Shown: piece after piece, positions 5,047 through 54,414 of the stretch | Layout: the number at the start of each line of letters is the position of its first letter | Position numbering within the stretch: position 1 is the stretch's first letter | NCBI GenBank assembly: GCA_964482205.1 | Contig: CAYZWI010000004.1 | Location: 67,913-131,912, forward strand | Length of the DNA: 64,000 nt | From: an uncultured bacterium | GTDB taxonomy: Bacteria > Eisenbacteria > RBG-16-71-46 > CAIMUX01 > WJJG01 | Direction of reading: 5' to 3' | Notes under the pieces: generated by a model | The model's input: only the letters and a program-made list of their open reading frames with translations | Database searches by the model: none | Told to the model about the DNA's origin: nothing | Program-made: the position numbers and the translations under genes

Positions 5047-7248
5047 ATGTTCGCCCTCGGCTGCACGCACGGGATTTCCTGTCCCGTGCCGGCCCTTCGC
5101 AGGCCACTTCTATTTTTGTTGTCGAGCCTGGCTTTCTTTCTGCTGATGCCGGGCCTCTCCATGGTCGACGCGCTATCCCAAGATTGCATCGATTATCAGG
5201 AGTATCTCCACGAGATCGGCTGCTATCCGACGCGCTTCGACCGGCACGTCTGCGATGTCGCCGTCTCGGGCTCGTTCGCGTATGCCGTTGTCAGATTCCG
5301 TGACCTGCGCGTGTTGGATATCTCCGATCCTTCGAATCCTGTTTTGAAGGGAACTTGCGCATGCTCCGGCTATCAAGCCGCCGTGCTCGGCTCTGAGGTC
5401 GTGATCAACTCCGGCAACGGATTGCGAATCGTCGACGCGGCCAATCCCTCCTGCCCGATCGTTGTTGGAACCCTCGTTGTCCCAACGTTCACCGATGACC
5501 TGGCCGTCTCGGATGGTCATGCCTTCTTGGCCGAAAGAGACTCCGGTCTCGTGGTCGTCGATCTCGCAGATCCGGCCGCTCCGGCCATCGTCGCGACCTA
5601 CGACGCTCTCGGCCAGGCGCGGGGAGTGGCCGTGAGGGACGGATATGCCTACGTCACGGCCGATTCGCACCTGCATGTCCTCGATGCGACCGATCCGTCG
5701 AACCTTCAGTGGATCGGCAGCGCGGATTTGCCGGGTTCAGCCGGGGCGGTGGACGCTCTCGGCAGCCTGGCGGTCGCCATCGCCGACTCCATGCTCATCG
5801 TGGTCGATGTTTCCGATCCTCGAGCGCCTCAAGTGCGGAGCACATTCGCATGCGTCGCTCGGGATGTGGAGTTGTATGGCACCTGTGCTTGCATCGCGGG
5901 AGGTGGATACTCGAGCCCCAACGACTTGAGCGTGATCGATCTGTCCGATCCAGCGAATCCGCGGCTCCTCGCGCGCGCCGATCCCGATGACGGTCTCGGG
6001 CAGGGTCTCGGCCTGGCCGCATCGGCCGGTCTTGCCTATGTCGCAGTCGCGGGAGATGAAATGCCGCCGGATTGGAACGGCCTCCGAGTCTTCTCGCTCG
6101 GCAATCTGCGCGCTCCCCAGAGCGTGGGGCGGATGCCCAGATCCTATGATGCCATTGTGGTCTCCGGTTCTTGCGCCTTTGGGGCATTCGGTCGCGAAGT
6201 GGATGCGATCGACATTTCCGACCCGGAACATCCGGCACTCATGGATCGGATCTCTGTGCCCGGGTATTTGTGCGATCTCGCGATCGAAGGTTCCTGCGCG
6301 TATGGATCGACCTCGTTGTATGAGGCCGGATTGCAGGCCATCGACATCACCGATCCAAGCGACCTGCGGCTGGCCGGCAGCCTGTTGATTCCCGACTACA
6401 TCCATTCCGTGGCCGTGTGGGCAGGGTTCGCCTATGTCACCGGCGACACAGGGCTCTATGTGGTCGACATCGCCAATCCGGCGGAGATGGCCATCGTCGG
6501 TGGAATCGCCCACCCCTGTAGAGATGTCGTGGTCCACGATGGGCTGCTCTACGCCGCGATGCTGGGTGGTCTGCGAGTGATCGACATCACCGATCCTTCT
6601 AGCCTATGGATCATGAGCGGCCTGGACAGCATCGCAGATACATACCACCTGGCAATTCGCGATCATTATGCCTATGTGGCCGGCGCCGCATTGCAGATCA
6701 TCGACATTCAAGATCACGCCGACCTCCGGCTCCTCGGAAGCGTCCATCCCAGTGCCTCGCACAATGTCGCGCTGCACAGCTCGTGCGCATACCTGTCCAG
6801 CGAATACGCCGGGCTTGCGGTCGTCGACATCTCCAATCCCGAAATGCCCGTTCTCCTCGGAGGGGCAGCAGACTTCTGGCCGTCGGGGATTGCCGTTTCG
6901 AACACGCACCTTCTGGCCGGCGATCGCGTCATGCCTCTTCAATGCGCATCCCCGGCGTCGATCGTGGAGCATCCGCTCCTCAGCACGCATCCCATCCCCG
7001 GTTTCGGCTTCCGCCGCGCCGGGCTGCACCTGGAGCTGCCCGCCGCAGGTCGCGTCCGCGTGACGGTGCATGATGTTGCCGGCCGCCTGGTGCGCATTCT
7101 TATCGACGATCATCGCGCGGTGGGAAAGCTCGACCTCGAATGGGACGGGCGTGACGACCACGGAAGCCCGGTCGGCGCGGGAGTCTATCTGATCCACAGC
7201 CGGGCCGGGGGCAAGGTGGCAGCCGGACGGGTGGTGATCATCCGATAA
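5047..7248 (+). CDS. Secreted LVIVD-repeat beta-propeller protein with a C-terminal FlgD-Ig-like/T9SS-type sorting domain
   Basis: Many repeats of the form LRVLDISDPSNP, LVVVDLADPAAP, LHVLDATDPSNL, LIVVDVSDPRAP (LVIVD, PF08309). The C-terminus is GRVRVTVHDVAGRLVRILIDD..GAGVYLIHSRAGGKVAAGRVVIIR. There is an N-terminal signal peptide, and the exact start is uncertain. Confidence 0.8.
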   Translation: MFALGCTHGISCPVPALRRPLLFLLSSLAFFLLMPGLSMVDALSQDCIDYQEYLHEIGCYPTRFDRHVCDVAVSGSFAYAVVRFRDLRVLDISDPSNPVLKGTCACSGYQAAVLGSEVVINSGNGLRIVDAANPSCPIVVGTLVVPTFTDDLAVSDGHAFLAERDSGLVVVDLADPAAPAIVATYDALGQARGVAVRDGYAYVTADSHLHVLDATDPSNLQWIGSADLPGSAGAVDALGSLAVAIADSMLIVVDVSDPRAPQVRSTFACVARDVELYGTCACIAGGGYSSPNDLSVIDLSDPANPRLLARADPDDGLGQGLGLAASAGLAYVAVAGDEMPPDWNGLRVFSLGNLRAPQSVGRMPRSYDAIVVSGSCAFGAFGREVDAIDISDPEHPALMDRISVPGYLCDLAIEGSCAYGSTSLYEAGLQAIDITDPSDLRLAGSLLIPDYIHSVAVWAGFAYVTGDTGLYVVDIANPAEMAIVGGIAHPCRDVVVHDGLLYAAMLGGLRVIDITDPSSLWIMSGLDSIADTYHLAIRDHYAYVAGAALQIIDIQDHADLRLLGSVHPSASHNVALHSSCAYLSSEYAGLAVVDISNPEMPVLLGGAADFWPSGIAVSNTHLLAGDRVMPLQCASPASIVEHPLLSTHPIPGFGFRRAGLHLELPAAGRVRVTVHDVAGRLVRILIDDHRAVGKLDLEWDGRDDHGSPVGAGVYLIHSRAGGKVAAGRVVIIR

Positions 7249-17731: not shown

Positions 17732-17794
17732 GCGTGCTCCTCTCCCATCGCCTACTCCGGCGCCGCGAGTGCCGCTGATGCGCCGGCCCTGCGA

Positions 17795-19694: not shown

Positions 19695-19739
19695 CGCGGA
19701 TTCGTAGGGACCATCTTCGGCGACGGCTCATGGAGCTTC

Positions 19740-20282: not shown

Positions 20283-20431
20283 GATGAGGAACCCCCAATC
20301 TCTTGTGCGATCCATAGGCCGGGCGCCCGCTGGCGTCGTTCGTCATTCGCTTGAATGCGCATGCCAAAGGGCGCGGGCGCACGTGCGAGCAGGACCACCG
20401 ACCTGATCACCGTGAAGAAAGGGACCCGATC

Positions 20432-28029: not shown

Positions 28030-28371
28030 AGGCGCGGGCGCGCAAATGGCGAAGTGCCCGCCATGAAGAAGCACGCGCGGCGGGCGCTTCGTGGTTTCTT
28101 GCAGAGAAGGAAGATGCAAGCCTGGACTGGTCAGAACGCCATCCTTGGCGTATCTTTCGGACACGATTCCGGTTGCCGGCCTTGGCAGGAAGGAGCGGCC
28201 GTTCCGCATCAGGCATGGCGACGAGAAGCCGGCTTGTGAGTCCATTTCCTGCGCGCCTCATAGAAAGCGGGCAGGAATTCTTGGAGAGCGTGTCGCCGGA
28301 TGACTCCGCCTCCATGTCAGCAAAATGACATGGTTCTCGTCGGGCAGGAACCTAGGAAAAGGGGTCAAATC

Positions 28372-31300
28372 ATGCGAATCATCTGGATGTTGTGGTTGTC
28401 GCTCATCGCCGCGGCGTTCGCGCATCCGGTGTCCCTCGAGGCCCAGGAGGCGGGCGCCCCAAGACCTTCATTGCAGGATGCGAGTGTGCCGACACTCTAT
28501 CTCGTCGCTACGGCCCACCTCGATACCCAATGGCGCTGGACGATTCAGGATGTCATCCGGGATTACATCCCGGCGACGCTGAATGAGAATTTCGCCCTCT
28601 TCGAACAGTATCCCGATTATGTCTTCAGCTTCGAGCGCGCCTTCCGCTATCAGCTCATCAAGGAGTACTACCCCGATCTCTACGAACGCATGAAGGAGTA
28701 CATCGCCGCCGGGCGATGGAAGGTCTCCGGAAGCTGGATGGACGCGGTCGACGTGAACATTCCCGCGCCAGAGTCGCTCATCCGTCATGCGCTCTACGGC
28801 AACGGTTTCTTTCGGCGCGAATTCGGCGCCACCAGCCGTGATGTCTTCCTGCCCGACTGCTTCGGCTTCGGTTACAGCCTGCCCGCCGTGGCGGCGCATT
28901 GCGGGCTGCTCGGCTTCTCAACGCAGAAGCTCGAGTGGGGCTCGGCGGTCGGGATCCCCTTCGATGTCGGATTGTGGGAAGGCGTCGATGGATCGCGTCT
29001 GATCGCGATGCTGAACCCCGGCAGTTATGTGAGCCAGATCGAGGCCGACCTGAGCGCGGATACGACATGGGCGGGCAAGATCGCGCGCCAATACCGGCGT
29101 TCGGGATTCGCGGTCGGGCAGAAGTTCTACGGCACCGGCGATCAGGGCGGCTCGCCCAACGAATCCTCCGTCGCGTGGATGCAAAAGAGCCTGCGGGGAC
29201 CGGGCCCTGTGCGCGTGCGCCCGGCGTCGTCCGATCAGCTCGCGCGTGATTTGAGCGCGTTGCTGAAGACCGAGCTGCCCACGGGGCTGCGCCCGGATGT
29301 GGACCTCGGCGCGCTCGCGAATCTGCCCAAGTATCGCGGCGAACTGCTGCTCACCGATCACGGTTCAGGCTGCTACACCTCGCAATCAGCCATGAAGCGC
29401 TGGAATCGCAAGAACGAATGCCTCGCGGACGCGGCCGAGCACGCCGCGGTCGCGGCGCACTGGCTGCGCGGCGCGTCCTATCCGCAGCAGACCCTGAACG
29501 ACGCCTGGACGCGCTTCCTCTGGCATCAATTCCACGACGATCTCACCGGAACGAGCATCCCCCAGGCTTATCTCTTCTCGTGGAACGACGAGGCGATCGC
29601 GGCGAACCAGTTCTCGGAAGTGATGCGCAACAGCGTGGGCGCGGTGAGCCGCGCGCTCGACACCAACACGCGCACCGGCGAGCCGCTGATCGTCTACAAT
29701 CCGCTCGCCATCGAGCGCGAGGACCTGGTGGAAGCGAAGGTGCGCTTCGCGCAGGGCAGCCCGCGGGCCGTGCGCGTCTTCGACGCTGACGATCGCGAAG
29801 TTCCGGCGCAGTCCTCCCCACTTCCCGACGGACGCACCTCGGTCGTCTTCCTCGCGCGCGTTCCCTCGATGGGATTCGCGCTCTACGAGATGCGCCCCGC
29901 CCTCGGACCGGAGCGCGGCGAAAGCGAGCTCAGCGCGGGATCGGCGAGCCTCGAGAACGCCCGCTATCGCGTGCAGCTCGATCAACACGGCGACATCCTC
30001 TCGGTCTTCGACAAGCGGATCGAAAAGGAGCTGCTCTCCGCGCCCATCCGTTTGCAGATGATCGCCGACCGGCCGACCGAATGGGCCGCGTGGGAGATCG
30101 ATTACGACGATCTCATGGCGCAGCCGCGTCCCGTCGGCGGGGAAGGCGCGCGCATGACGCTAGTGGAAGGTGGTCCGGCCCGCGTGACCTTGGAAGTTCG
30201 TCGCGAGGCCGAAGGCTCGACCTTCGTGCAGCGCATTTCGCTCGCGGCCGGCAACGCGGGCGACGCGGTCGTCGTCGAGAACGACATCGACTGGCGCACG
30301 CCGGCGACCCTGCTCAAAGCCGCCTTCCCGCTTACGGCGAGCAACGCCATGGCGACCTACGATCTCCGTCTCGGCACGATCGAGCGCCCGCGCAACACGC
30401 CGAAGCTCTATGAAGTGCCCGCGCAGCAATGGGCCGACATCACGAATGCCGACGGCAACTATGGCGCGGCGATTCTCAACGATTGCCGCTACGGATGGGA
30501 CCACCCCGAAGACAACACCCTGCGCCTCACGCTCCTTCGCACGCCCGAAGTGAACGAGCGCTGGAATTGGATTCGCGACCAGGAGCGCCAGGACTTCGGC
30601 CGCCATCGTCTGGCGTACGCGATCTACGGGCACGCCGGAGATTGGCGGGAAGGCGAAGTGGCGTGGCGGGCGGAACGCATGAATCAGCCGCTCCAGGCGT
30701 TTCAGGTTCCGCGTCATCGCGGCTGGCTGGGGAAGAGCTTCTCGATGCTCGACATCTCCACCGGCGGCGCGCAAGCAGCCGGACAGCCTTCGCTTCCCAC
30801 CGTCGCGGTGCGCGCGCTCAAGCTGGCCGAAGACGGCGACGAGATCGTCGTCCGCTTGCAGGAAATCGCGGGGCGCGGCGTCGAGGATTGCGCCGTCCGC
30901 TTCCCCGTTCCGCTCGCGATCGTGCGCGAAGTGAACGGCGCGGAAGAGCCGATGGAGACAAGCAGCGAGAAGGGCTCGGTGGCCGGGCCGGTGTGGCTCG
31001 CCGGCGGCGCGCTGCACTGCGCACTGAAGCCGTATCAGCTGCGTTCCTTCGCGCTGCGCACCACCGCCGCGGCGAAGACGCTCGAACCGCCCGTGAGCGA
31101 GCCGGTCGCGCTGCCGTACAACCTCGATGCGATCAGCGATCAGGACGATCCGACCGATGGAGATTTCGACGGCGCGGGCCACACGCTGGTTGCGGAATTG
31201 CTCCCGCCGGTCGTGTATTCGAACAGCGTCGCCTTCAAGCTCGGGCCACGCGCGCGCGGGTGGGCGAATGCCGTCGCGTGCCAGGGCCAGCGGATCGCGT

Positions 31301-32430
31301 TGCCGGCGGGAGCCTTCGACCGGTTGTGCCTGCTCGCCGCCAGCGTGGAAGGCGATCGCTACGGCCGCTTCGGCATCGAGCCCGCCTATGCGGACAACTA
31401 TGAAATGCAGCTCTGGATCCAGGATTGGGCGGAGCCGGTGGGCCAGTGGGACAATCGCGTGCTCCTCGGCCGCGTGCACGAGCATCCCGACTCGATCGCG
31501 CCCGCGTACACGAAGCCGGCCGCGGTCGCCTGGGTGGGCTCGCATCGCCACGACGCCGTGGGCAGCAAGATGCCGTACGAACAGAGCTATCTCTTCCGCT
31601 ACGGAATCGATCTGCCCCACGAGACGCGCAGCATCGTCTTGCCCAACGATCCGAGCATCCGGATTCTCGCGATCACGGCGGTGCGCAATGCGAACGACAT
31701 CGCCGCCGCGGCGACCTCGCTGATCGAGGAGCCCGTCTCCACTTCGGTTGCGATCCGCGCGCCGTTGCTCACCTTCTTCGGCGAAACGCGGGTGGCGCTC
31801 AGCACGCCCATTCCCGGCGCGCAGATTCGCTACACGCTCGATGGCACCACTCCCGGCCCCGATTCGCCGCTGTATGCGGGACCGATCGCGTTGACCCAGA
31901 CGACCACCGTGAACGCACGCGCGTTCGCGACGGGATTGCGCGACGACTACGTCGCCTCCGCGCGCTTCACGCGGCAGGAAGCGCGCGCTTCCGTTTCCGC
32001 GGCCGGGCTTCGTCCGGGGCTCAAGATGCGCCGGTATGAAGGCGAGTGGTCGAAACTGCCCGCGTTCTTCACGCTCACTCCGCAATCGGAGCAGATCGCG
32101 GAGACGCTGGGCCTGCCGGGAGCGGGCGGTGAGGAGTACTTCGGGCTCGCCTTCGATGGATTCCTGCGCGTGCCGCGCGCAGGGCTCTACACGCTGTATC
32201 TCACCTCCGACGACGGCAGCGCCTTGACCTTGGGAAGCGAGAAGCTGATCGACAACGACGGCCTGCACAGCCGCCTCGTCGAGAGCGCGCATGTGGCCCT
32301 GCAGGCCGGCGTGCATCCGATTCGGGTGGAGTACTTCCAGGCGCAGGGCGGAGCGACTTTGTCTCTCGAATGGGAGGGCCCGGGCATCGCGCGCCAGCCC
32401 GTTCCGCCATCCGCCTGGTCGCATCGTTAG
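28372..32430 (+). CDS. Secreted GH38 alpha-mannosidase with C-terminal CHB_HEX_C and PA14 domains
   Basis: Start at MRIIWMLWLSLIAAAFA (signal peptide) with an aGGAaaaGGGG RBS. LVATAHLDTQWRW GH38 N-terminal motif. Near the C-terminus, IRYTLDGTTPGPDSPLYAGPIAL matches chitobiase/hexosaminidase C-terminal, and GLYTLYLTSDDGSALTLG..HPIRVEYFQ matches PA14. Confidence 0.85.
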   Translation: MRIIWMLWLSLIAAAFAHPVSLEAQEAGAPRPSLQDASVPTLYLVATAHLDTQWRWTIQDVIRDYIPATLNENFALFEQYPDYVFSFERAFRYQLIKEYYPDLYERMKEYIAAGRWKVSGSWMDAVDVNIPAPESLIRHALYGNGFFRREFGATSRDVFLPDCFGFGYSLPAVAAHCGLLGFSTQKLEWGSAVGIPFDVGLWEGVDGSRLIAMLNPGSYVSQIEADLSADTTWAGKIARQYRRSGFAVGQKFYGTGDQGGSPNESSVAWMQKSLRGPGPVRVRPASSDQLARDLSALLKTELPTGLRPDVDLGALANLPKYRGELLLTDHGSGCYTSQSAMKRWNRKNECLADAAEHAAVAAHWLRGASYPQQTLNDAWTRFLWHQFHDDLTGTSIPQAYLFSWNDEAIAANQFSEVMRNSVGAVSRALDTNTRTGEPLIVYNPLAIEREDLVEAKVRFAQGSPRAVRVFDADDREVPAQSSPLPDGRTSVVFLARVPSMGFALYEMRPALGPERGESELSAGSASLENARYRVQLDQHGDILSVFDKRIEKELLSAPIRLQMIADRPTEWAAWEIDYDDLMAQPRPVGGEGARMTLVEGGPARVTLEVRREAEGSTFVQRISLAAGNAGDAVVVENDIDWRTPATLLKAAFPLTASNAMATYDLRLGTIERPRNTPKLYEVPAQQWADITNADGNYGAAILNDCRYGWDHPEDNTLRLTLLRTPEVNERWNWIRDQERQDFGRHRLAYAIYGHAGDWREGEVAWRAERMNQPLQAFQVPRHRGWLGKSFSMLDISTGGAQAAGQPSLPTVAVRALKLAEDGDEIVVRLQEIAGRGVEDCAVRFPVPLAIVREVNGAEEPMETSSEKGSVAGPVWLAGGALHCALKPYQLRSFALRTTAAAKTLEPPVSEPVALPYNLDAISDQDDPTDGDFDGAGHTLVAELLPPVVYSNSVAFKLGPRARGWANAVACQGQRIALPAGAFDRLCLLAASVEGDRYGRFGIEPAYADNYEMQLWIQDWAEPVGQWDNRVLLGRVHEHPDSIAPAYTKPAAVAWVGSHRHDAVGSKMPYEQSYLFRYGIDLPHETRSIVLPNDPSIRILAITAVRNANDIAAAATSLIEEPVSTSVAIRAPLLTFFGETRVALSTPIPGAQIRYTLDGTTPGPDSPLYAGPIALTQTTTVNARAFATGLRDDYVASARFTRQEARASVSAAGLRPGLKMRRYEGEWSKLPAFFTLTPQSEQIAETLGLPGAGGEEYFGLAFDGFLRVPRAGLYTLYLTSDDGSALTLGSEKLIDNDGLHSRLVESAHVALQAGVHPIRVEYFQAQGGATLSLEWEGPGIARQPVPPSAWSHR

Positions 32431-32535: not shown

Positions 32536-32800
32536 TTACCTGAATAGCGCCTTCAATGCGCCCCAGGTCGTCTCCTGTGCCGGCGATCCCCCGCAGCCGA
32601 CGGGCAGAGCCCCGATCAGCCCACAGTCGGGATTGTATTCGGGTGCGCAGGGGGAACCCTGCTCGAGCCGGAAGTCCCCAGACTCACCGGCGCAGAAGAG
32701 CGGATCGGCCGAGATGTTGCCGTTCACCCCGTACTGGTCCGCGATGTCGCCCACCCAGTCGCCGCCTGAATTGCCGTAGATGTCGCTACAGGACAGAATT
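32536..32800. repeat. Roughly 250 bp DNA segment duplicated at 34030-34300 (the 3' ends of the two beta-helix paralogues)
   Basis: Antisense translations of both copies share HRRRRADRPRCCRS. The protein C-termini are near-identical. Confidence 0.65.
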
Positions 32801-33882
32801 GCATATCCCTGGACCGCGGCTGCACCAAGGTTGAAGGCCAGTACGGTGTTTCTGAATGCCGCGCTGCCGCTCCTGCAATCCACTACTGACCCAGTCGCAC
32901 CGGCGTCGTTGGACGCGATTGTGCAGTTCGAGAATTCAAGGGCACTGGAAGCAAGGCAGTAGCCAACCGGGCCTGATTGATCCACCGTGTTGCCATAGAA
33001 CAGGCAATCGGTGATCACGGGATAGAACTCCAGGTCGCTGAAAACGGCCGCCCCGTTCGCGGCGTGATTATTCCGGAAGGTGCAGTTTGAGATGCTGGCG
33101 GTCGATACGATCCCTCTGATCGCCGGCCCGTCGTTCTCGAAGAACAAGCACGTCGCGATTGTGGCCGGTCCAGATCCGCAGCCAATGCCGAAGGAAGGGT
33201 GTTCGGAAAAGCTACAGTCTTCCAGTTCCGGCATGCAATCCGTCTGCCATGAAACGCCTCCTGGCAGATTCCCAATGAAGTTACATCCGACGAGGCGAGG
33301 AGAAGCGTAGAAATAGCAGTAGATGCCGGCGCCGACATCGGACCCGATCGACTCGTTTCTCACGAAGACGCAATCGGTGAAGGTTGGTTGGCAAGGACGG
33401 TAACATAGCGCCCCTGCCCCCGTCCTGGCCGAATTCTCGGTCAGCACGCAATTCACAATGCTGGGAGAGGCACTCCTACAATAGATTCCCCCTCCGTCTC
33501 CGTCCGGGAACGTGCCCCCCGAAATGTAAGCATTCCTCACCGTAACGCCCCGAAGAACCGAGGATGGCGTCTCCTGAGAGGAGAAGATGAAGCCCCGATG
33601 CCGGTCGCTCGCACTGGCCTGGCAGTCGATAATGCAGTCCGTGGGGGAGTCGCCCTGCGATTGTACGATGATGCCCTTCCCAGCAAAGGTGATGTCCCGG
33701 TTTCCGGGCCCCATGAAGATGCCGTCCCCCAAGAGGACGATATCCCCGCTGGCCGCCGCGTCTATGGCCGCCTGCACGGTCGGGAAGTCTCCCGTTCCGT
33801 CCGGCAAAACCAGGTATGTATCTCCAAGTGCGCAGATGGAGCCAACCAGCGCCAATGCGAGACAGATGATTATGTTTCGCAT
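32536..33882 (-). CDS. Secreted Cys-rich right-handed parallel beta-helix repeat protein with a conserved Cys-rich C-terminal tail ending in TTWGALKALFR
   Basis: Signal peptide MRNIIICLALALVGSICALG. Repeated NxxxxN/G-rich beta-helix coils (VRNAYISGG.., LTENSARTG.., FVRNESIGS.., FRNNHAANG..). Confidence 0.7.
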   Translation of the reverse strand: MRNIIICLALALVGSICALGDTYLVLPDGTGDFPTVQAAIDAAASGDIVLLGDGIFMGPGNRDITFAGKGIIVQSQGDSPTDCIIDCQASASDRHRGFIFSSQETPSSVLRGVTVRNAYISGGTFPDGDGGGIYCRSASPSIVNCVLTENSARTGAGALCYRPCQPTFTDCVFVRNESIGSDVGAGIYCYFYASPRLVGCNFIGNLPGGVSWQTDCMPELEDCSFSEHPSFGIGCGSGPATIATCLFFENDGPAIRGIVSTASISNCTFRNNHAANGAAVFSDLEFYPVITDCLFYGNTVDQSGPVGYCLASSALEFSNCTIASNDAGATGSVVDCRSGSAAFRNTVLAFNLGAAAVQGYAILSCSDIYGNSGGDWVGDIADQYGVNGNISADPLFCAGESGDFRLEQGSPCAPEYNPDCGLIGALPVGCGGSPAQETTWGALKALFR

Positions 33883-34029
33883 GGTCTGCCTCCTTGGTCT
33901 TCAGACGGCGTAGCCCGCGGCCACTCCCCCGCCATCCCGATGACCTCTCGGTGACCGAGGGGTCGTCGGTGCTCCTGGCATCGAAACCTTCCCAGCGCAC
34001 ACGGACGCGGCGTCACCGTCCACGCGATT

Positions 34030-35211
34030 CTACTTCCCGTCCCCCCGAAACAGCGCCTTCATCGCACCCCAGGTCGTCTCCTGTGCCGGCGACGAGCCGC
34101 AGCCGACGGGCAGCGCCCCAATCAGGCCGCAGGCGGGATTGAAGTCCGGTGCGCAGGGCGAGTCCTGTTCGAGGTGAAGATCTCCACCCGTGCCATCGCA
34201 GAAGAGCGGATCGGCCGAGATGTTGCCGTTCACGCCAAGCAGGCCGTCCAAGCATCCGACCCAGTCCCCGTCGTCATTGCCGTAGAGATCGCAGCACACA
34301 AGCACCGGGGTGGACTGGGCATCGCACGAGATCGCCACGGCTTCCGAAGCGAATGCGATGATGGAGTTGGAGATTAAAGGATTCGCTGGCGTGCCGCACG
34401 CATAGGAACACAGAAGATCAGCATTTGAAGCGTGATTGTTGACGAATGTACAGCTCTCGATGATCGGAGAACATCCGGTGATCATCATGCTGCCCCCGCC
34501 TCGTGCCGAATTCCCTGAAAAGAGGCAACCGCGGAACTCAGCGCCTCGCCCCTGGCGGACGGAAGCCTCAATGGACTCCAGCAAGACAGCCCCGCCAAAT
34601 CGCGATGCCGAATTGTCGATGAACATGCAATCCTCGAAGCTCGGACTGTTGGAGGCATTCGTGGTGAAGGCTCCGCCGTCCGTCGCCCGGTTCTCGATGA
34701 ACCGACAGCGGACAAAAGTCGAACTGGCGCCGTCACCGACCGCACCTCCGGCGGCTGCCGAATTGGACTGGAACACGCAATCCCTCACCGTAATCCCGGT
34801 GGGTCCCCAAGTGATGCTTAGACCCCCCGCTTCCCCCATTGTGACGCGGCCCCTCGCAATCGTGATCCCCTCGATCACCGTTCCAAAGACCGGCAATACC
34901 GCGATCCCTGGAGCGCTCTCCTCGCAATCGATCACGCACTGATCCGGATCCCCGCTCTGCGACCGGATGGTGATCCGGCGAGCTGGAACCTCGACGCCTC
35001 TGTTGCCCGGCCCAACGAATACTCCCGCCGTCAGCTCGACGACATCACCAGCAACCGAGGCATCGACTGCATCCTGGATCGTGGGGAAATCGCCCGTGCC
35101 GTCCGGGCGGACGAGATACACTGTTCCAAAGGCGGGAATCGAACAGCAACACGCAAGCGCGATTGCCAGCACCGTCGCGCTGCAGTTCCGTATCGATGAT
35201 CCTGCCTGCAT
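34030..35211 (-). CDS. Secreted Cys-rich parallel beta-helix repeat protein, a tandem paralogue of the upstream gene, with C-terminal ..ETTWGAMKALFRGDGK
   Basis: Both the N-terminal region (YLVRPDGTGDFPTIQDAVDA) and the C-terminal 85 aa are about 70% identical to the 32536-33882 protein. Start at MQAGSS. Confidence 0.7.
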   Translation of the reverse strand: MQAGSSIRNCSATVLAIALACCCSIPAFGTVYLVRPDGTGDFPTIQDAVDASVAGDVVELTAGVFVGPGNRGVEVPARRITIRSQSGDPDQCVIDCEESAPGIAVLPVFGTVIEGITIARGRVTMGEAGGLSITWGPTGITVRDCVFQSNSAAAGGAVGDGASSTFVRCRFIENRATDGGAFTTNASNSPSFEDCMFIDNSASRFGGAVLLESIEASVRQGRGAEFRGCLFSGNSARGGGSMMITGCSPIIESCTFVNNHASNADLLCSYACGTPANPLISNSIIAFASEAVAISCDAQSTPVLVCCDLYGNDDGDWVGCLDGLLGVNGNISADPLFCDGTGGDLHLEQDSPCAPDFNPACGLIGALPVGCGSSPAQETTWGAMKALFRGDGK

Positions 35212-35343
35212 GGTTTTGTTCCCCTGTTGACCATCCGATGGGGTCATTCGGGCGCCTGTCATCATATTATCATAGCGCGATGCCGCATCCAATCAGGTCG
35301 CCGCACGAGCAGGTGCTGATGGAGGCTGCCAGACCACCTCGGC

Positions 35344-36159
35344 TCACTTGATCAGCACGAGAACCGCGAAGTCGGCCGTGTACATCCGCGTCTTCCGGCG
35401 AAATCGCGCGGGCGGAAGCTGGCGCATGAGAAGCGGCGCGGTCAAGGGAACCAGCGGCTGAAGGAAGATCCGGCGAATCCACCAGGGGATCCGCGCATTT
35501 CCGAAGACGAGATTGTGGGCGTTAAAGCCCGGCTCGCCGAAATACTCGGCGCTTTCCAACCGGAGTCCCGAGGGCTCGATCAACCGTTCGCGAAGATTCT
35601 TCTCCGAATAGTATCGCATGTAGAAGCGCGCCTCGTCCGGGCGTCCGTCCACGTAGGTGCGCGTACGCGTGTACTTCGGCTCGTCGCGCCATGGGTCGAA
35701 CGGGACCGAGATCACCATGCGGCCGCCGGGAGCAAGCACGCGAACCAGCTCGGCGAGAACGGGCCGCTCGTCGACGATGTGCTCGAGCACGCTGATAACT
35801 GAGATGCGGGTGAACTCGCCATCCGCGAAGGGCAGGCGCGCGGCGTCGGCGACGGTAAAATCCAGCTGCCCTTCCTTCATCAACCGGCGCGCCCAGGGAA
35901 CCTTGTTCGCCATGCGCAACTGGCGATCCCGAAAGTCGGGTTCCGGATCGACCGCGCGCACGGAGCACCCAAACCGCTTCGCGAGCACTTGAGCGAGCGG
36001 AGAATACCGCGTGCCCACATCGAGCAGGCGATCGCCCGGCCCGAGGGCGAGACGATCCACGACCGCCGGATACTCCAACCAACGGCCATAGGGAATCCCT
36101 TTGGAAAACTCGACCAGCCCTTGTTTCCAAAGGAATTTGTAGTACTCGCAATGCAGCAC
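35344..36159 (-). CDS. Class I SAM-dependent methyltransferase
   Basis: [30 protein letters not shown] and [12 protein letters not shown] (Methyltransf_11-like). Confidence 0.75.
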
Positions 36160-36330
36160 GCGCTTCCTCCCGTCGAAGGGACGCTCGTCACGGTACGCGG
36201 TTTTCTTCCGCGCGGCAATGCGCGGGGAGAGCCAAAGCTTCCTCGGCCCGGCCCGCCACCGCGACGCGCATCCGTTCCTCCCCGATTGATGGACATGCGC
36301 GCGCCTGGCATGGTATCAAGCGGAGGACAT

Positions 36331-36885
36331 ATGAAGGCTTTCGATCCGAAATCCGGCCCGTCGTCGCCCGAGGCGCCCGCGAATGCGCCGGGCGATCGCG
36401 ATGCGAGCGCTTCGCAGGCGCCCGAGGCTTCACGCCCCCTCAACCGGCTCGCGCGCGAGAAGAGCCCCTACTTGTTGCAGCACGCGGGCAATCCCGTCGA
36501 CTGGTACCCGTGGGGCGCTGAAGCGCTCGAGCGCGCTCCCGCAAATCACCTCGCCTTCGCCGCGGCGCTGGACTTCGCCCTCGGGCCCGTGAGCGAGATC
36601 ACGATCTCGGCGGGCGCCTCGAAACAAGGCATCGAAGGCGGCTCGGAAGCCTCGCCTTCCTCGGCCGCGGCTATGCTTCGCGCGGTCCGCGAGCGGTACC
36701 TTCCCAACATCGTGCTCGCCTGCCGGCCGGCGCATGGGAGCGAGCCGCTCGAACGGCTCATTCCCCACACGAAGGCGCAAGTTCCGCTTTCCGGGAAGTC
36801 GACCGCCTATGTGTGCAGGGGGTATGCTTGCCTCATGCCCGTTCACGATGTCGATGCGCTTGCCCGGCAGCTCGATGAGGAGTGA
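36331..36885 (+). CDS. DUF255/YyaL-family thioredoxin-domain protein remnant. The N-terminal about 30 aa is fused to the C-terminal about 100 aa, and the thioredoxin core is absent.
   Basis: [26 protein letters not shown] is the DUF255 N-terminal signature and is followed immediately by a C-terminal-like region (..[16 protein letters not shown]). The GGAGGA RBS is retained. Confidence 0.5.
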
Positions 36886-37642
36886 GTGGATTCGCGTGGC
36901 GCATGATCAGCAGAACGAATGGTATCGCACGGCCTTCGACGGCCTCTATCCGCTTCTCTATCCGCATCGCGACGACGCGCAGGCGGAAGCCGAAGCGTGC
37001 GGCTTGATGGATTTGCTGCGCCTTCCACGCGGCGCGCAGGTTCTCGATCTCGCTTGTGGAACGGCGCGCCACTGCCAGGCGCTCGCACAGCGCGGCATAT
37101 CCACCTGGGGGCTCGATCTCTCGCCCGCGCTTCTCTCGCTCGCGCGAAAGCGCGCCTGTCTCTCCGGACGCCTCGTTCAAGCCGACATGCGCCAGCTTCC
37201 CTTCCGGCGCTCGTTCGATGCCGTGCTCAGCCTCTTCACCAGCTTCGGCTACTTCTCGGAAGAGGAAGAGCACCTGCGCGTGCTGAAGGAAGTGGCGCGC
37301 GTCATCCAGCCCGGCGGGCTCTTCGTTCTGGATCACATTCACCGGCCGGCACTGGAGCGGACCTTGATTGCGCAGGATGAGCGGAAAGACCCCGACTTCG
37401 TCCTTCGCCAGGAACGCGCGCTCGCCGGCAATCGCGTGAAGAAGCGCGTGACGGTCGAGTGGAAAGACGGGCGCACGCGCTCGCTGGAAGAGAATGTGCG
37501 CATCTTCTCGCCCGCGGAATTGCGCGACCTGCTGCAAGCCGCGGGCTTTTGCGACACACGCTTGTTGGGATCGTTCCAGGGGGAGCCGCTCACGGAAACA
37601 TCCGCGCGGCTCATCGCGCTGGCCCGCATGCCAAGCGCCTGA
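36875..37642 (+). CDS. Class I SAM-dependent methyltransferase
   Basis: [25 protein letters not shown] and [11 protein letters not shown]. Confidence 0.75.
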
Positions 37643-37779
37643 CGACTCGGCGCCCGAATCGAGATGGCGCGCGCGCCATTCGCTCCACTACAATCGTCGC
37701 GATCGTCGTGGGCGGTCGCGCTTGCACGGCGAAGCGGGCGGGCCGTCGTAGTTCTGTGCTTCCGTGAAGGCGAGACCTC

Positions 37780-39519
37780 ATGGCATTGGATTCGTTCTCG
37801 AGTCCCCGTTTCGATGTGGCCACGATCGCATGGCCCTCCATCGAAGCGTTTGCGCCGTACCGCGAGATGGCGCGGATCGCGGAGGCGATGTCCGCATTGC
37901 CCGCGGGAATGCAGCGTGGAATGCATTCGCCCTCATCATCGCATGCGCCTGTGGACCTCGCGCAGCGCGACGCTTCGGCCTCCCCCTTCCTGGATCTGCG
38001 CGCCGCCGCGCGCGCCGTAGCCGAGCAGAATCCTCACCTGCCTCCTCCTCCCATCGAAGCGCGCTATGTGGTCGCTGGCCAGCAGGCGGGGCTTCTCTCG
38101 GGGCCGGTGTACACCATCCTGAAGGCCGTCTCGACCATCGCCCTCGCCCGCCGCTGGTCGATGAAGAGCGGCGAGCCAGTGCTGCCCTTGTTCTGGATCG
38201 CGAGCGAGGATCACGACATCCTCGAGATCAATCGCGTTCGCTTGCACGAACGCGCCTTCGTGCACGAGCTGCCCGAGTTCGAGCGCGGGCCGCGCCCGCA
38301 AGCTTCGCATGTCCCTCTTCTTTCAGCGCGCGAACCGTTGCTCGCATTTCTGCGCGATGCTCTGCCCTCCTCCGAGCACAAGGATGCGCTGATCGAATCG
38401 GTGGCGTCGCTCGACTTCCACGATTACGCCTCCACGTTTCGCAGTTTCATGGAGCGCCTCTTCCTTCCCTGGGAGTTGCGCTTCATCGATCCGATCGCGC
38501 TCCGGCCGCTCACGGCGCCGGTGCTCGCTGCCCTGGTCGAACGCTGGGAGGCGTGCGAGGAGGCCTTCTCCGCAGGCGCGCGCGCGATGACGGCCGAAGG
38601 CTTCACTCCGCCGCTCGAGCGCATCGGTCTCTTCGAGATCCGCGACGGATACCGGGTCGCGGTGAAGAAAGATGCCGCGGGATTTCACCTCGCGACGGAT
38701 ACGAGCGAAACGGAGGCATGCGACGCGCGCACCGCAGCGCAGCGCATTCGCAGCGATCCGGCGCGCTTTTCCGGAAACGCCGCCTTCCGCCCGATCTGTC
38801 AGGATGCGGTCTTGCCGGTCGCGACGATGCTCGGAGGCCCATCGGAGCTTGCGTATCTGCGCCAGATCCGCCCGCTGTATGCCGTCGCCGATGTCCGTCC
38901 GGCGCGATCTCTTCCGCGCATCTCGGCGACCTTCGTGGAGCCGGGCGCAGCCCGCGCGGCAAGACAGGCGCACCTGGAAGGAGCGCGCATGTTCGATGCG
39001 CGGGAGTTGCTCTCGAACCCCGCCGCATTACTGCGCGCGAGCGATTCGCCTACCAGCCGTGCAAACGATTCCACGCCCGGCGGCGCAACTGAGCGCAGGG
39101 AGGGCCACGCAATCGCTTCCACGCCCGGCGGCGCCATCGAGCGCATCGAGACCCACGCGCGCGCGCTGGTGGAAGAGCTCGATCGCCTGGGACTCGATCC
39201 AGCGCCGCGCTGGCTGCGCACGAGCCGCGAGGATGTCCAAGCGATTGCCGCGCGCGTGACGGCCCGGCTGCGCGAGGCCGAACGCGAGGCCGCGGGGATG
39301 ACGAAGGCGCGCCTCGAGAAGCTGGCCGCCGCCGTTCTTCCCGAAGGCAAGCCGCAGGAACGCGTGGTCAATGTGCTCCAGTTCCTGAACCTTCACGGTC
39401 CCGGGTTTCTCGCGCGCATGATCGACGATCTCGATCCGGAAGCTTCGGGCCATCATCTCGTGCATGTCGATCCGCCCGGCAATGCGCGCGGCGGCCATGC
39501 GCACGAGCAAGGAGGATGA
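37780..39519 (+). CDS. bshC: Bacillithiol biosynthesis cysteine-adding enzyme BshC
   Basis: VVAGQQAGLLSGPVYTILKAVSTIALARR is the BshC/YllA signature. The length (579 aa) is typical. Confidence 0.8.
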   Translation: MALDSFSSPRFDVATIAWPSIEAFAPYREMARIAEAMSALPAGMQRGMHSPSSSHAPVDLAQRDASASPFLDLRAAARAVAEQNPHLPPPPIEARYVVAGQQAGLLSGPVYTILKAVSTIALARRWSMKSGEPVLPLFWIASEDHDILEINRVRLHERAFVHELPEFERGPRPQASHVPLLSAREPLLAFLRDALPSSEHKDALIESVASLDFHDYASTFRSFMERLFLPWELRFIDPIALRPLTAPVLAALVERWEACEEAFSAGARAMTAEGFTPPLERIGLFEIRDGYRVAVKKDAAGFHLATDTSETEACDARTAAQRIRSDPARFSGNAAFRPICQDAVLPVATMLGGPSELAYLRQIRPLYAVADVRPARSLPRISATFVEPGAARAARQAHLEGARMFDARELLSNPAALLRASDSPTSRANDSTPGGATERREGHAIASTPGGAIERIETHARALVEELDRLGLDPAPRWLRTSREDVQAIAARVTARLREAEREAAGMTKARLEKLAAAVLPEGKPQERVVNVLQFLNLHGPGFLARMIDDLDPEASGHHLVHVDPPGNARGGHAHEQGG

Positions 39520-43582: not shown

Positions 43583-43970
43583 TCCGCCCCCCGAGCGTTC
43601 GTGGTAATGGCTCTCTTCATGGCCCGCGCACTTGCCGTACGGCCCCGCCGGGCATGGCAGGCGCTGTGCTGCCAAGCATTAGCGCCGCCCCGCCGAGCGT
43701 TACAGGCGCTGCCCTGCCGAGCATCGCGAAACCGCAAGCGCCTCCGCTCGAATCGCTTTCGGCCTCCGCATTGTAGTCCGCGCCGCGCCGTGCCCACAAT
43801 CCGCGAGTGCGCGCGTACGCGTCCCGCCGCCTTGCGTTGGCATGCTCGGGAATTCGCTCCGTGAATGGCAGGGTTGGATTTGCGAGAGCTCCTTCAGCCC
43901 GCAATCCCGATGTGGAACCGGGCGATACCTTATGGATACACTCCTCCGAAACCGTAAAAAGGAGACCGGC

Positions 43971-53673: not shown

Positions 53674-54414
53674 ATGACCTTTCATCCGAGGAGGATTCCT
53701 GCCATGCGTCCGCTTGCCTGTCTGGCCGATGCCTCATCCAGAATCATTTTCACGTTCACTCTTGCGCTGACACTCTTTCTCGTGCTCGCGCCCTCATCCT
53801 TCGGCGCCGGTTCGAGCCCTGATGTCGCCCGCTTCCGCAACCCTGCCACAGACGAGGAGCCTTGCGCCATCTGCCCTCCCGGTGGAGTGGCGGAGGGAGA
53901 GCCGCCCTGCATGGACGACTACGTCGACGAGTACAACAGCGGATGCTGCTGCTTGGAGATGAATTGGACTCCGATCATCCCGGTGACGGAAGGCTGCGCG
54001 ACCATGTGCGGGCGAAGCTGCACTTTCCTGCATCACGGCCTCAGCTATCGCGACACCGATTGGTTCGCGTGCGAGGCCGCAGGAGGTCCGGTCACGGTCG
54101 AATGCCAGGCGGATTTCCCCGTCGAGATGCTCCTCTTCGATCCCGCGGATTGTGATTCGCTGATCTTCGATCATGTTGTGATTGGTGAGCGCTGCGAAAC
54201 CGTTCAACTCACGCATTCGATGCCCGCAAACTCCACTTTCTGGATCTGGGTGGGGCCATCGGAGTTCAACGGAATTCCCGAGCGGCCCTACCTGCTCAAT
54301 GTCTGCGGAATCACAGGGAGCGCGGCCACGATTCAGGATCCCGTGGAATCGGACGATTTCGAGAAGACCACCTGGGGGCGGCTCAAGAAGGCGTTCGGAA
54401 CCGGCAATCGGTAG
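53674..54414 (+). CDS. Secreted Cys-rich hypothetical protein ending in ..EKTTWGRLKKAFGTGNR
   Basis: Signal peptide MRPLACLADASSRIIFTFTLALTLFLVLAPSSFGAG. About 18 Cys residues. Its C-terminal motif is shared with the two beta-helix proteins. Confidence 0.55.
   Translation: MTFHPRRIPAMRPLACLADASSRIIFTFTLALTLFLVLAPSSFGAGSSPDVARFRNPATDEEPCAICPPGGVAEGEPPCMDDYVDEYNSGCCCLEMNWTPIIPVTEGCATMCGRSCTFLHHGLSYRDTDWFACEAAGGPVTVECQADFPVEMLLFDPADCDSLIFDHVVIGERCETVQLTHSMPANSTFWIWVGPSEFNGIPERPYLLNVCGITGSAATIQDPVESDDFEKTTWGRLKKAFGTGNR

What the first reader, a model, noticed from the sequence alone, without database searches (positions are those of the whole stretch)
32536..35292. Tandem paralogous Cys-rich beta-helix secreted proteins share a duplicated 3' segment and a terminal TTWGxxKALF motif, also found on an unrelated secreted protein
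Two adjacent minus-strand genes (32536-33882 and 34030-35211) encode signal-peptide beta-helix proteins. Their last 85 or so residues are nearly identical (..DPLFCxGxxGDxxLEQxSPCAPxxNPxCGLIGALPVGCGxSPAQETTWGA(L/M)KALFR), and the corresponding DNA is about 250 bp of near-identical sequence. A third Cys-rich secreted protein with a different fold (53674-54414) ends in ..EKTTWGRLKKAFGTGNR. In contrast, the LVIVD protein at 5047-7248 carries a conventional FlgD-Ig/T9SS-type C-terminal domain. A short motif at the extreme C-terminus of otherwise different secreted proteins is the hallmark of a dedicated sorting or processing signal (compare PEP-CTERM, GlyGly-CTERM, LPXTG). I do not recognise this one, so it may define an undescribed export or anchoring system.
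Basis: seen in the sequence. Interest (0 to 1): 0.7.

Follow-up and report, generated by a model that had tools for sequence, protein, structure and literature searches.

The report
Conserved C-terminal "TWG" tail tag
Three secreted proteins in this window end in the same ~19-residue tail (…P-V-P-V-E-x-x-T-W-G-x-I-K-x-L-Y-R-stop), a tag found at the very end of many unrelated exported proteins in Candidatus Eisenbacteria and allied uncultured phyla; it swaps with the type IX secretion C-terminal domain, so it is probably an undescribed protein-localisation signal.

Summary
Genes A (32536-33882, -), B (34030-35211, -) and C (53674-54414, +) encode signal-peptide proteins ending in TTWGx[LM]Kxx[F]: 3 occurrences against 0.045 expected. 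Only the "near-identical 3' DNA" is overstated (77% nt identity).

The motif is general. A codon pattern with no stop codon hit 122 sites in GTDB genomes. 110 are followed by a stop within 0-1 codons, almost all in Eisenbacteria, Krumholzibacteria, Latescibacteria and related MAGs. A 19-position tail-only profile finds 415 protein clusters at E<=1e-3, and 141 of the top 150 end within 3 residues of the C-terminus.

Carriers are unrelated (67 clusters, about 80% without any Pfam domain) and about 90% have signal peptides. In gene A's family about 86 homologues carry the tail and about 28 carry a FlgD-Ig/T9SS-type domain at the same junction, never both. AlphaFold models the tail as a flexible appendage in two unrelated folds.

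NCBIfam, Pfam and the literature do not describe it. It has no transmembrane helix, so it is not a sortase/exosortase-type signal. It can occur in tandem or just after the signal peptide.

Best reading: an autonomous post-Sec localisation or anchoring tag bound by an unidentified envelope partner.

The parts
32536..33882 (-). Gene A: signal peptide + right-handed beta-helix passenger + Cys-rich cap + TWG tail (448 aa)
   Evidence: ORF; Pfam Beta_helix 1.9e-18; AlphaFold pLDDT 94.4 with beta-helix up to about residue 430; exact product P0031 is held by NCBI on a 286,817-bp contig
32539..32595 (-). Tail module of gene A (last 19 residues, CGGSPAQETTWGALKALFR)
   Evidence: Strict motif at 32568-32542, 1 codon before the stop; pLDDT 55-58 with a short helix at 440-446, not docked on the core
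32596..32790 (-). Beta-helix C-terminal cap of gene A (..GNISADPLFC..SPCAP..CGLIGALPVGC), conserved across the family
   Evidence: 75% aa identity to gene B over the last 83 residues; conserved in 72 homologues; the cap ends where the tail or a CTD is attached
34030..35211 (-). Gene B: tandem paralogue of A (signal peptide + beta-helix + cap + TWG tail followed by GDGK); an alternative upstream TTG start lies at 35292
   Evidence: ORF; Pfam Beta_helix 1.7e-11; homologues in other genomes end in ..TTWGAMKALFRGDGK or ..FRGDAK
34033..34101 (-). Tail module of gene B (CGSSPAQETTWGAMKALFRGDGK)
   Evidence: Strict motif at 34074-34048, 5 codons before the stop
53674..54414 (+). Gene C: signal peptide + Cys-rich beta-sandwich passenger + TWG tail (246 aa; the database product P0005 starts 10 codons later)
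   Evidence: ORF; no Pfam/NCBIfam hit; 25 homologues, nearly all ending in the tail; AlphaFold core pLDDT >90, generic jelly-roll/PPC/CBM-like by Foldseek
54343..54411 (+). Tail module of gene C (..VESDDFEKTTWGRLKKAFGTGNR)
   Evidence: Strict motif at 54370-54396, 5 codons before the stop; disordered linker at 211-223 and a low-confidence helix at 224-230 in the model
7021..7245 (+). Comparator in the same genome: FlgD-Ig-like (T9SS-type) C-terminal domain of the LVIVD protein (gene 4945/5047-7248)
   Evidence: Pfam FlgD_ig 30.9 bits, residues 700-750; NCBIfam TIGR04183 sub-threshold; clusters with 36 similar CTD proteins found beside tail genes in 28 loci

Best explanation
The 3' ends of genes A, B and C encode an autonomous C-terminal peptide module of about 19 residues, the 'TWG tail'. 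Its consensus is C-x(1-3)-[PA]-[VT]-P-[VAT]-[ERQ]-x-[ST]-T-W-G-x-[VIL]-K-[AS]-[LM]-[YF]-R-COOH. It hangs on a flexible linker at the end of Sec-exported proteins with unrelated folds in Candidatus Eisenbacteria and allied FCB-group phyla.

It most likely acts as a post-Sec localisation or anchoring tag. After export to the periplasm, a common envelope partner recognises the exposed tail, probably non-covalently. That partner could be a receptor protein or an envelope polymer or lipid. This fixes the protein's destination: retention or anchoring at the envelope, or hand-over to an outer-membrane route. The tail would then fill the role that the FlgD-Ig/T9SS C-terminal domain fills in paralogues.

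Shown: existence, conservation, terminal position, signal peptides, unrelated passengers, several copies per genome, mutual exclusivity with the T9SS-type CTD, taxon restriction, structural detachment, absence from curated libraries.

Inferred: that it is a localisation tag, that binding is non-covalent, and that a dedicated partner exists.
For: (1) Position lock without imposing it. A DNA pattern with no stop codon gave 122 hits. 110 have a stop 0-1 codon after ..[YF]R and 6 more within 2-10. The 5 clearly internal hits are in unrelated taxa. A tail-only profile against 1.84 billion representatives gave 415 clusters at E<=1e-3; 141 of the top 150 end within 3 residues of the C-terminus. In 865 kb there are 140 C-terminal matches against 11 internal ones in 7,024 ORFs.

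(2) The tail is kept while the passenger diverges. Homologues of gene C at 30-50% identity keep the tail. Synonymous differences inside the A/B tails show selection at the protein level.

(3) Passengers are unrelated: 67 clusters, 43 of them singletons, about 80% without Pfam. The rest carry surface-type modules such as LTD, beta-helix, propellers and P-domain.

(4) Signal peptides: 24/26 in family C, 73/79 in family A, and 75% of genome-locus tails against 29% of control ORFs.

(5) Several per genome: 3 in this 64-kb window, several contigs of the same MAGs, tandem arrays of up to 4.

(6) Choice of anchor. In gene A's family about 86 have the tail, about 28 have a FlgD-Ig CTD, none has both, and the junction is the same. 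Adjacent paralogues in L091/L100 carry one or the other.

(7) Flexible appendage in two unrelated AlphaFold models.

(8) Tandem tails (2-5 units of about 19 aa), and copies right after the signal peptide plus one at the C-terminus. This fits an autonomous binding module with avidity better than a one-shot cleavage signal.

(9) The tail 10-mer has a mean net charge of +2.3, with invariant Trp, Lys, Tyr/Phe and Arg. My inference is that such residues suit interfacial or ligand binding.
Against: No receptor, protease or transpeptidase was found. Neighbours of tail genes are generic or only syntenic among close relatives, and the window has no candidate.

There are no experimental data and no cultured carrier. 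Whether the tail is cleaved is unknown. The destination compartment (periplasm, outer membrane or surface) is unknown.

The hydrophobic-moment test does not favour a helix or a strand over shuffled order, and the AlphaFold helix has low confidence.

The near-invariance of T, W, G, K, [YF] and R in the genome-scan logo is partly by construction of the search pattern. Independent support comes only.

Taxonomic labels of MAGs are those of the depositors.
Confidence: 0.55

Rival explanations
1. Cleaved sorting signal. The tail is recognised by a dedicated endopeptidase or transpeptidase (functionally like sortase, exosortase or PorU), removed, and the new C-terminus is covalently attached to a lipid, LPS or peptidoglycan.
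For: The tail meets five of Haft's seven attributes of small C-terminal sorting domains: C-terminal position, several per genome, invariant signature residues, N-terminal signal peptides, unrelated carriers (criteria). A fixed-length semi-conserved spacer P-[VT]-P-[VAT]-E and a frequent Cys 9-11 residues upstream (73/140) could mark a processing site. It swaps with the T9SS CTD, which is itself cleaved and replaced by an anchor (PMC7468200 abstract).
Against: There is no hydrophobic transmembrane segment and no Arg cluster, so it cannot be presented to an intramembrane sorting enzyme as the known tripartite signals are. Tandem tails and post-signal-peptide copies make little sense for a single terminal cleavage. 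The Cys is present in only about half. No co-located enzyme was seen.
Confidence: 0.15
2. Minimal type IX secretion signal. The tail is an abbreviated alternative to the ~80-residue CTD and is recognised by the same T9SS translocon or shuttle.
For: The tail is confined to FCB-group lineages whose genomes also encode many FlgD-Ig/T9SS-type CTD proteins (36 in 28 of 119 loci, one in the window, one Por_Secre_tail protein in L126). It replaces the CTD at the same junction in the same families. Both C-termini end basic-x-hydrophobic-hydrophobic-[RK].
Against: A tail HMM scores CTD ends no better than control proteins. No NCBIfam or Pfam T9SS model touches the tail. T9SS recognition as currently understood needs a folded Ig-like domain (my recollection of the T9SS literature, not checked here). 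Tail carriers are small (median ORF 281 aa), unlike the listed CTD proteins, which are mostly 450-1,500 aa. T9SS machinery itself was not examined in these genomes.
Confidence: 0.12
3. Periplasmic quality-control or chaperone-recognition motif. The tail would be a C-terminal degron or ligand for a PDZ protease (Ctp/Deg) or a periplasmic chaperone, and would not determine location.
For: A free C-terminal position with an aromatic residue near the end resembles PDZ ligands (my recollection). A PDZ/S41 protease gene lies 6 kb from a gene C homologue in L124.
Against: That protease is a common housekeeping gene and is not a conserved neighbour. Known PDZ-protease ligands end in a hydrophobic residue (my recollection), whereas this tail ends in Arg (139/140, although the search pattern imposed Arg on the seeded hits). 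Mutual exclusivity with a secretion/anchoring domain and tandem copies are not expected of a degron.
Confidence: 0.08
4. No general function. The shared end only reflects recent duplication or gene conversion among paralogues in this genome.
For: A and B are tandem paralogues. Their 3' ends are the most similar part and show somewhat more identical codons (0.65 against about 0.44).
Against: Gene C is unrelated in sequence and fold yet carries the tail. The tail is found on 67 unrelated clusters in more than 100 genomes and in 415 database clusters. DNA identity of the A/B 3' ends is only 77%.
Confidence: 0.02

Closest known systems
T9SS type A C-terminal domain (Por_Secre_tail / FlgD-Ig-like CTD)
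   Same: Sits at the extreme C-terminus of Sec-exported proteins with unrelated passengers in FCB-group bacteria. There are many per genome. In this material it is interchangeable with the tail at the same junction of the same protein families.
   Different: The CTD is a folded Ig-like domain of about 70-100 residues detected by PF13860, PF18962 or TIGR04183. The tail is about 19 residues, modelled as unstructured or a short helix, has no detectable sequence similarity to any part of the CTD, and can be repeated in tandem.
Tripartite small C-terminal sorting domains (LPXTG/sortase, PEP-CTERM/exosortase, GlyGly-CTERM/rhombosortase, MYXO-CTERM/myxosortase)
   Same: Short, C-terminal, several per genome, near-invariant signature residues, N-terminal signal peptides, carriers otherwise unrelated, lineage-restricted (criteria in 10.1101/2023.06.07.544157).
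   Different: It lacks the transmembrane helix and the Arg cluster that define the class. It ends in one Arg after an aromatic residue. No cognate membrane enzyme was found, and no NCBIfam model hits it.
Non-covalent cell-surface anchoring modules that occur in tandem (SLH, LysM, GW, WxL, choline-binding repeats). This comparison is from my own knowledge.
   Same: Appended to diverse exported proteins, usually at one end. May be repeated for avidity. Rich in aromatic and basic residues.
   Different: Those are folded domains or repeats of 20-70 residues, mostly in monoderms, with known ligands. This unit is about 10-19 residues, occurs in diderm candidate phyla, is usually single, and its ligand is unknown.
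Outer-membrane-protein C-terminal beta-signal (BAM recognition). This comparison is from my own knowledge.
   Same: A motif of about 10 residues at the extreme C-terminus with a conserved Gly and an aromatic residue near the end, read after Sec export.
   Different: The beta-signal ends in the aromatic residue itself and is the last strand of a beta-barrel. Here the last residue is Arg, and the passengers are soluble beta-helix, beta-sandwich or propeller folds.

Membership tests
Tripartite small C-terminal sorting domains (Haft criteria, 10.1101/2023.06.07.544157) | [quoted passage not shown] | tested here: met
   110/122 pattern hits are followed by a stop within 0-1 codon. 141/150 profile hits end within 3 residues of the C-terminus.
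Tripartite small C-terminal sorting domains (Haft criteria, 10.1101/2023.06.07.544157) | [quoted passage not shown] | tested here: met
   3 in this 64-kb window. Several contigs of the same MAGs were hit. 25 loci have 2-4 tail genes. A whole-genome count was not possible.
Tripartite small C-terminal sorting domains (Haft criteria, 10.1101/2023.06.07.544157) | [quoted passage not shown] | tested here: met
   W, G, K, [FY] and R are conserved in homologue sets that were not selected on the motif. W and K are invariant or nearly so in alignments A5 and A7.
Tripartite small C-terminal sorting domains (Haft criteria, 10.1101/2023.06.07.544157) | Strongly hydrophobic segment long enough for a transmembrane helix | tested here: not met
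   Only 9-10 residues follow the Trp, and they include Lys and Arg. There is no hydrophobic stretch.
Tripartite small C-terminal sorting domains (Haft criteria, 10.1101/2023.06.07.544157) | Cluster of 2-5 basic residues (mostly Arg) at the end | tested here: not met
   A single terminal Arg, with the Lys four residues upstream (Lys at +4 and Arg at +8 from the Trp). The 10-mer has a mean net charge of +2.3.
Tripartite small C-terminal sorting domains (Haft criteria, 10.1101/2023.06.07.544157) | Most carriers have an N-terminal signal peptide | tested here: met
   By a heuristic: 24/26, 73/79, and 91/122 against 122/426 controls. SignalP was not available.
Tripartite small C-terminal sorting domains (Haft criteria, 10.1101/2023.06.07.544157) | Carriers include many pairs with no other homology | tested here: met
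   67 BLAST clusters, 43 of them singletons. Diverse or absent Pfam domains.
Tripartite small C-terminal sorting domains (Haft criteria, 10.1101/2023.06.07.544157) | Cognate sorting enzyme that co-occurs across genomes | not testable with these tools
   Whole genomes could not be retrieved. Adjacency analysis found none.
T9SS type A C-terminal domain | Folded Ig-like domain of about 70-100 residues matching TIGR04183, PF18962 or PF13860 | tested here: not met
   No hit on A, B, C or isolated tails even at E<=10. The tail is about 19 residues with low pLDDT.
T9SS type A C-terminal domain | Sequence relationship to part of the CTD (truncated CTD or its last strand) | tested here: not met
   0/28 CTD-bearing homologues contain the motif. 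The tail HMM scores CTD ends like controls.
T9SS type A C-terminal domain | Dependence on T9SS machinery (PorK/L/M/N, Sov, PorU/V) | not testable with these tools
   No such genes lie in the window. Genome-wide presence was not examined.
OMP beta-signal | The last residue is aromatic and the motif is the last strand of a beta-barrel | tested here: not met
   The motif's last residue is Arg in 139/140, with the stop immediately after it in 122/140. The passengers are a beta-helix and a beta-sandwich.
Right-handed parallel beta-helix proteins (PF13229), passengers of genes A and B only | Match to PF13229 above threshold and a beta-helix fold | tested here: met
   67.0 and 44.4 bits against a cutoff of 25.9. 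AlphaFold beta-helix, pLDDT 94.4.

The most novel reading that the evidence does not exclude
Eisenbacteria, Krumholzibacteria, Latescibacteria and relatives have a protein-sorting or anchoring system that has not been recognised. It works in parallel with type IX secretion and reads a transmembrane-less tail of 10-19 residues (TWGxIKxLYR-COOH). It would handle on the order of a hundred mostly uncharacterised exported proteins per genome through a dedicated, still unknown receptor or translocon.
Probability: 0.45. Interest if true: 0.85.

Novelty: new variant of a known kind. Interest (0 to 1): 0.7.

Why it matters
C-terminal sorting tags (LPXTG, PEP-CTERM, T9SS CTD and others) have each led to a dedicated envelope machine and to a reliable way of predicting the surface proteome.

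This tail marks a large and mostly uncharacterised set of exported proteins in several uncultured phyla that are common in soils, sediments, groundwater and wastewater. About 80% of the carriers sampled here have no Pfam domain. The tail gives those proteins a shared handle.

Its architecture has no membrane-spanning segment, it can be repeated, and it swaps with the T9SS domain. That differs from every curated class, so the reader of the tag is likely to be new as well.

In practice, a tail HMM would immediately improve annotation of these MAGs. It would also allow a phylogenetic-profiling search for the partner.

Tried and rejected
- **Exact-product look-ups.** Look-ups of genes A and C and of P0031 failed, so the source contig could not be walked. 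P0005 only returned Logan contigs that lie inside the window.
- **Tail-only homologue search.** The 44-aa version collected only 4 candidates.
- **Curated libraries.** NCBIfam and Pfam scans of whole proteins, isolated tails (E<=10) and tandem-tail proteins gave no model.
- **Literature.** Motif strings, literal peptides, Eisenbacteria with secretion or T9SS, and sorting-signal surveys gave nothing relevant. PMC4814513 refers only to the ordinary Por CTD.
- **Truncated T9SS CTD.** Rejected.
- **Mimic of the last CTD strand.** No sequence support.
- **Conserved neighbour or operon partner.** The recurrent neighbours are CTD proteins, response regulators, sigma-54 activators, a histidine kinase, an aminotransferase, PMT_2 and SpoIID, or synteny among close relatives. 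The S49-type protease next to gene C is not conserved beside distant homologues.
- **Amphipathic-helix claim.** The hydrophobic moment is not significantly above shuffled order for a helix or a strand, so I did not rely on it.
- **Recent 3' duplication or gene conversion between A and B.** Only weakly suggested. Constraint explains most of the similarity.
- **P0159.** The profile hit with 6 internal matches is an unrelated WSALKALYRWSPLG repeat protein, a false positive.


Full report
**1. The observation**

The window (64.7% G+C) holds two adjacent minus-strand ORFs and one plus-strand ORF:
- Gene A, 32536-33882, 448 aa, ends ..SPAQETTWGALKALFR*.
- Gene B, 34030-35211 (an alternative TTG start lies at 35292), ends ..SPAQETTWGAMKALFRGDGK*.
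- Gene C, 53674-54414, ends ..EKTTWGRLKKAFGTGNR*.

A six-frame scan for [ST]W[GS]x[ILMV][KR]xx[FY] finds exactly these three sites, each 1-5 codons before a stop. 200 dinucleotide-preserving shuffles give a mean of 0.045 matches and never one at the end of a long ORF.

A and B match Pfam Beta_helix and Chlam_PMP. C matches nothing in Pfam or NCBIfam. The LVIVD protein upstream carries a Pfam FlgD_ig C-terminal domain above threshold. NCBIfam's T9SS type A model is below its cutoff.

One element is overstated. The last ~83 residues of A and B are 75% identical in protein and 77% in DNA, against 27-48% aa identity elsewhere. Identical codons among identical residues rise only from about 0.44 to 0.65. 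The same cap and tail recur in homologues from other genomes. The 3' similarity is therefore mostly constraint on whole-gene paralogues.

**2. The motif is general and locked to the C-terminus**

Homologues of gene C at 30-50% identity nearly all have signal-peptide-like N-termini. They end in [ST]-[WF]-[GST]-x-[IVL]-K-x-x-[FY]-[RKNE] at the last residue.

I then scanned one genome per GTDB species with the codon pattern ACS TGG GGS NNS NTS AAG NNS NNS TWC CGS. It encodes T-W-G-x-h-K-x-x-[FY]-R in GC-rich codons and contains no stop codon. Of the 122 matches:
- 110 are followed by a stop within 0-1 codon.
- 6 more have a stop within 2-10 codons.
- 5 are clearly internal. These lie in Stenotrophomonas, Patescibacteria, Oscillospiraceae, Faecousia and Terriglobia. 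I read the Oscillospiraceae and Faecousia pair as a SecE-like N-terminus.

The other 114 loci are labelled as follows: Eisenbacteria/Eiseniibacteriota 48, unnamed MAGs 35, Krumholzibacteria 11, Gemmatimonadota 6, Fibrobacteraceae 5, Latescibacteria 3, Ignavibacteria 2, and single cases elsewhere.

Across 865 kb there are 140 ORF C-termini with a relaxed motif, against 11 internal matches in 7,024 ORFs.

Independently, a 19-position tail-only profile searched against 1.84 billion representative proteins finds 415 clusters at E<=1e-3. Of the top 150, 114 end exactly at the C-terminus and 27 within 1-3 residues.

**3. Anatomy of the module**

Aligned on the Trp, the unit is C-x(1-3)-[PA]-[VT]-P-[VAT]-[ERQ]-x-[ST]-T-W-G-x-[VIL]-K-[AS]-[LM]-[YF]-R-stop. 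A Cys occurs 9-11 residues upstream of the Trp in 73/140.

In that set the residues T, W, G, K, [FY] and R are partly fixed by the search pattern. Their conservation is shown independently.

The tail 10-mer has a mean net charge of +2.3. Its hydrophobic moment is not significantly above shuffled order, either as a helix or as a strand.

AlphaFold gives confident cores for two unrelated carriers. In both, the tail is a low-confidence short helix over W-G-x-h-K-x-h behind a disordered or low-confidence linker:
- Gene C family: beta-sandwich, core pLDDT above 90, generic jelly-roll/PPC/CBM-like by Foldseek.
- Gene A family: right-handed beta-helix, mean pLDDT 94.4, falling to 55-58 over the last ~18 residues.

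The tail is an appendage, not part of either fold.

**4. Who carries it**

The 140 carriers fall into 67 BLAST clusters, 43 of them singletons. The largest families have no Pfam domain. Of 131 passengers, about 80% have none. The rest carry lamin-tail domains (9), beta-helices (6), NHL/PD40/SGL propellers, P-domains, DUF4114 and similar modules.

Signal-peptide-like N-termini are found in 24/26 of family C and 73/79 of family A, including 6 with lipoboxes. Among genome-locus tails the figure is 91/122, against 122/426 for control ORFs. The median ORF length is 281 aa.

The window holds 3 tail genes in 64 kb. Outside the seeded hits there are about 20 more in about 800 kb, and 25 loci hold 2-4 tail genes, often in tandem. 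L127 holds a tandem beta-helix pair with tails plus a third tail protein. If representative, this extrapolates to the order of 100 per genome. The estimate is rough and is biased by clustering.

**5. Relation to the T9SS-type C-terminal domain**

The largest neighbour cluster (38 members in 28 loci, plus the window's LVIVD protein) is held together by a FlgD-Ig CTD ending ..GVYFYRL..TRKMVLLR*. These genomes therefore use both kinds of C-terminus.

Among the 120 best homologues of gene A (the counts include my reading of the sequences the regex left in 'other'):
- about 86 end in the tail,
- about 28 end in a FlgD-Ig CTD,
- 6 are truncated.

None of the 28 CTD-bearing proteins has the motif anywhere. 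Both versions diverge at the same point after the cap CGLIGAWPVGC. In L091 and L100, adjacent paralogues share a passenger domain of about 160 aa and end in either the tail or the CTD. The tail HMM scores CTD C-termini like controls (median -1.6 against -1.55 bits), while tails score 27 bits.

The tail is therefore neither a truncated CTD nor a copy of its last strand. It is a mutually exclusive alternative, the "choice of anchor" pattern that characterises sorting signals.

**6. Features that bear on mechanism**

Among the profile hits:
- Some proteins have 2-5 tails in tandem, with a unit of about 19-20 aa (P0151, P0152, P0154, P0157, P0161, P0175).
- Some have one copy right after the signal peptide and one at the C-terminus (P0155, P0156, P0163, P0177).
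- Some are domain-tail-domain-tail fusions (P0185, P0254, P0262, P0266).
- Several have lipobox-like N-termini.

So the unit is autonomous. It strongly prefers the chain end but tolerates other positions, and it can be multiplied. That is typical of binding modules with avidity and is hard to reconcile with a single terminal cleavage event.

No candidate enzyme or receptor is adjacent:
- Recurrent neighbours are generic families or reflect synteny among close relatives.
- The S49-type protease beside gene C is not conserved near distant homologues.
- The window otherwise encodes housekeeping and redox genes.

**7. Comparison with what is known**

NCBIfam release 20 and Pfam have no model for the tail, even for isolated tails at E<=10 or for tandem-tail proteins. 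Text searches for motif strings, literal peptides and the phyla involved found nothing.

Haft's survey lists seven attributes of small C-terminal sorting domains and the tripartite design of signature motif, transmembrane helix and Arg cluster (10.1101/2023.06.07.544157). The tail meets five attributes: C-terminal position, several per genome, invariant residues, signal peptides and unrelated carriers. It fails the two structural ones. It is therefore not a member of the sortase, exosortase, rhombosortase or myxosortase substrate class, although it may work like one in outcome.

It is not a T9SS CTD by size, fold or sequence. It is not an OMP beta-signal either, because the terminal residue is Arg and the passengers are soluble folds.

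**8. Verdict**

The best-supported explanation (confidence 0.55) is an autonomous post-Sec localisation or anchoring tag. It would be read, probably non-covalently, by an unidentified envelope partner, and it serves as an alternative to the T9SS-type CTD.

The rivals are a cleaved covalent sorting signal (0.15), a minimal T9SS signal (0.12), a quality-control or chaperone motif (0.08) and mere paralogy (0.02, refuted).

What is shown is the tag and its distribution. The machinery, the destination and whether the tail is cleaved remain inferred or unknown.

I rate it a new variant of a known kind, a C-terminal sorting or anchoring tag with a new architecture, and score interest at 0.7.

Noticed in passing
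L008, L010, L013, L033, L079, L085, L114 (e.g. L010:2539-3555 and 3559-4296): A conserved adjacent gene pair recurs in seven genomes. It consists of two distinct uncharacterised secreted proteins (..GYxHQVDG.. and ..GKIDxxCP.. subfamilies, no Pfam hit), and both carry the tail. They may form a two-component (heteromeric) unit.
   Followed up: partly
P0151, P0152, P0156, P0185, P0254, P0266 (profile hits): A family of apparent lipoproteins with a weak SnoaL/DUF4440-like N-terminal region carries 2-5 tandem tails, or a tail at both ends, or whole domain+tail duplications.
   Followed up: partly
L119:747-7187 (-): Three tandem beta-helix paralogues. One has a canonical tail (..TTWGRLKTLYR*), one ends ..SAWGTRSPRYH* (a degenerate or frameshifted tail), and one stops right after the cap (..EAGCGP*). 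This may be tail decay or assembly errors.
   Followed up: no
window 28264-32430 (+): A 1,388-aa secreted GH38 alpha-mannosidase with Fn3_assoc/CHB_HEX_C_1 and a C-terminal PA14 domain lies directly upstream of gene A. It has neither the tail nor a CTD.
   Followed up: no
window 16505-20953: An oxidative-stress cluster: ODP-lactamase/flavodoxin fusion (probably a flavodiiron-type protein), rubrerythrin, desulfoferrodoxin, a second rubrerythrin-like gene, and ferritin. This suggests an anaerobic or microaerophilic lifestyle.
   Followed up: no
window 1237-4935 (+): A 1,232-aa ORF combines MFS-transporter-like membrane regions with a spermidine-synthase-type methyltransferase domain.
   Followed up: no
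window 35344-37642 and 37768-39519: Two class-I SAM methyltransferase genes flank the A/B pair, followed by a BshC (bacillithiol synthesis) homologue. A DsbD-type thiol:disulfide protein lies at 43683-46172, which fits the Cys-rich exported proteins.
   Followed up: no
L063, L080, L109: In Ignavibacteria- and Bacteroidetes-labelled MAGs, small proteins (135-157-aa ORFs) end in ..VSSVKRTWGSIKAMFR*. This suggests that the tail extends beyond Eisenbacteria-like phyla into Bacteroidota/Ignavibacteriota.
   Followed up: no
P0159 (925 aa): An unrelated protein with six internal WSALKALYRWSPLG repeats scores against the tail profile. It is a false positive that any future tail HMM should exclude.
   Followed up: yes
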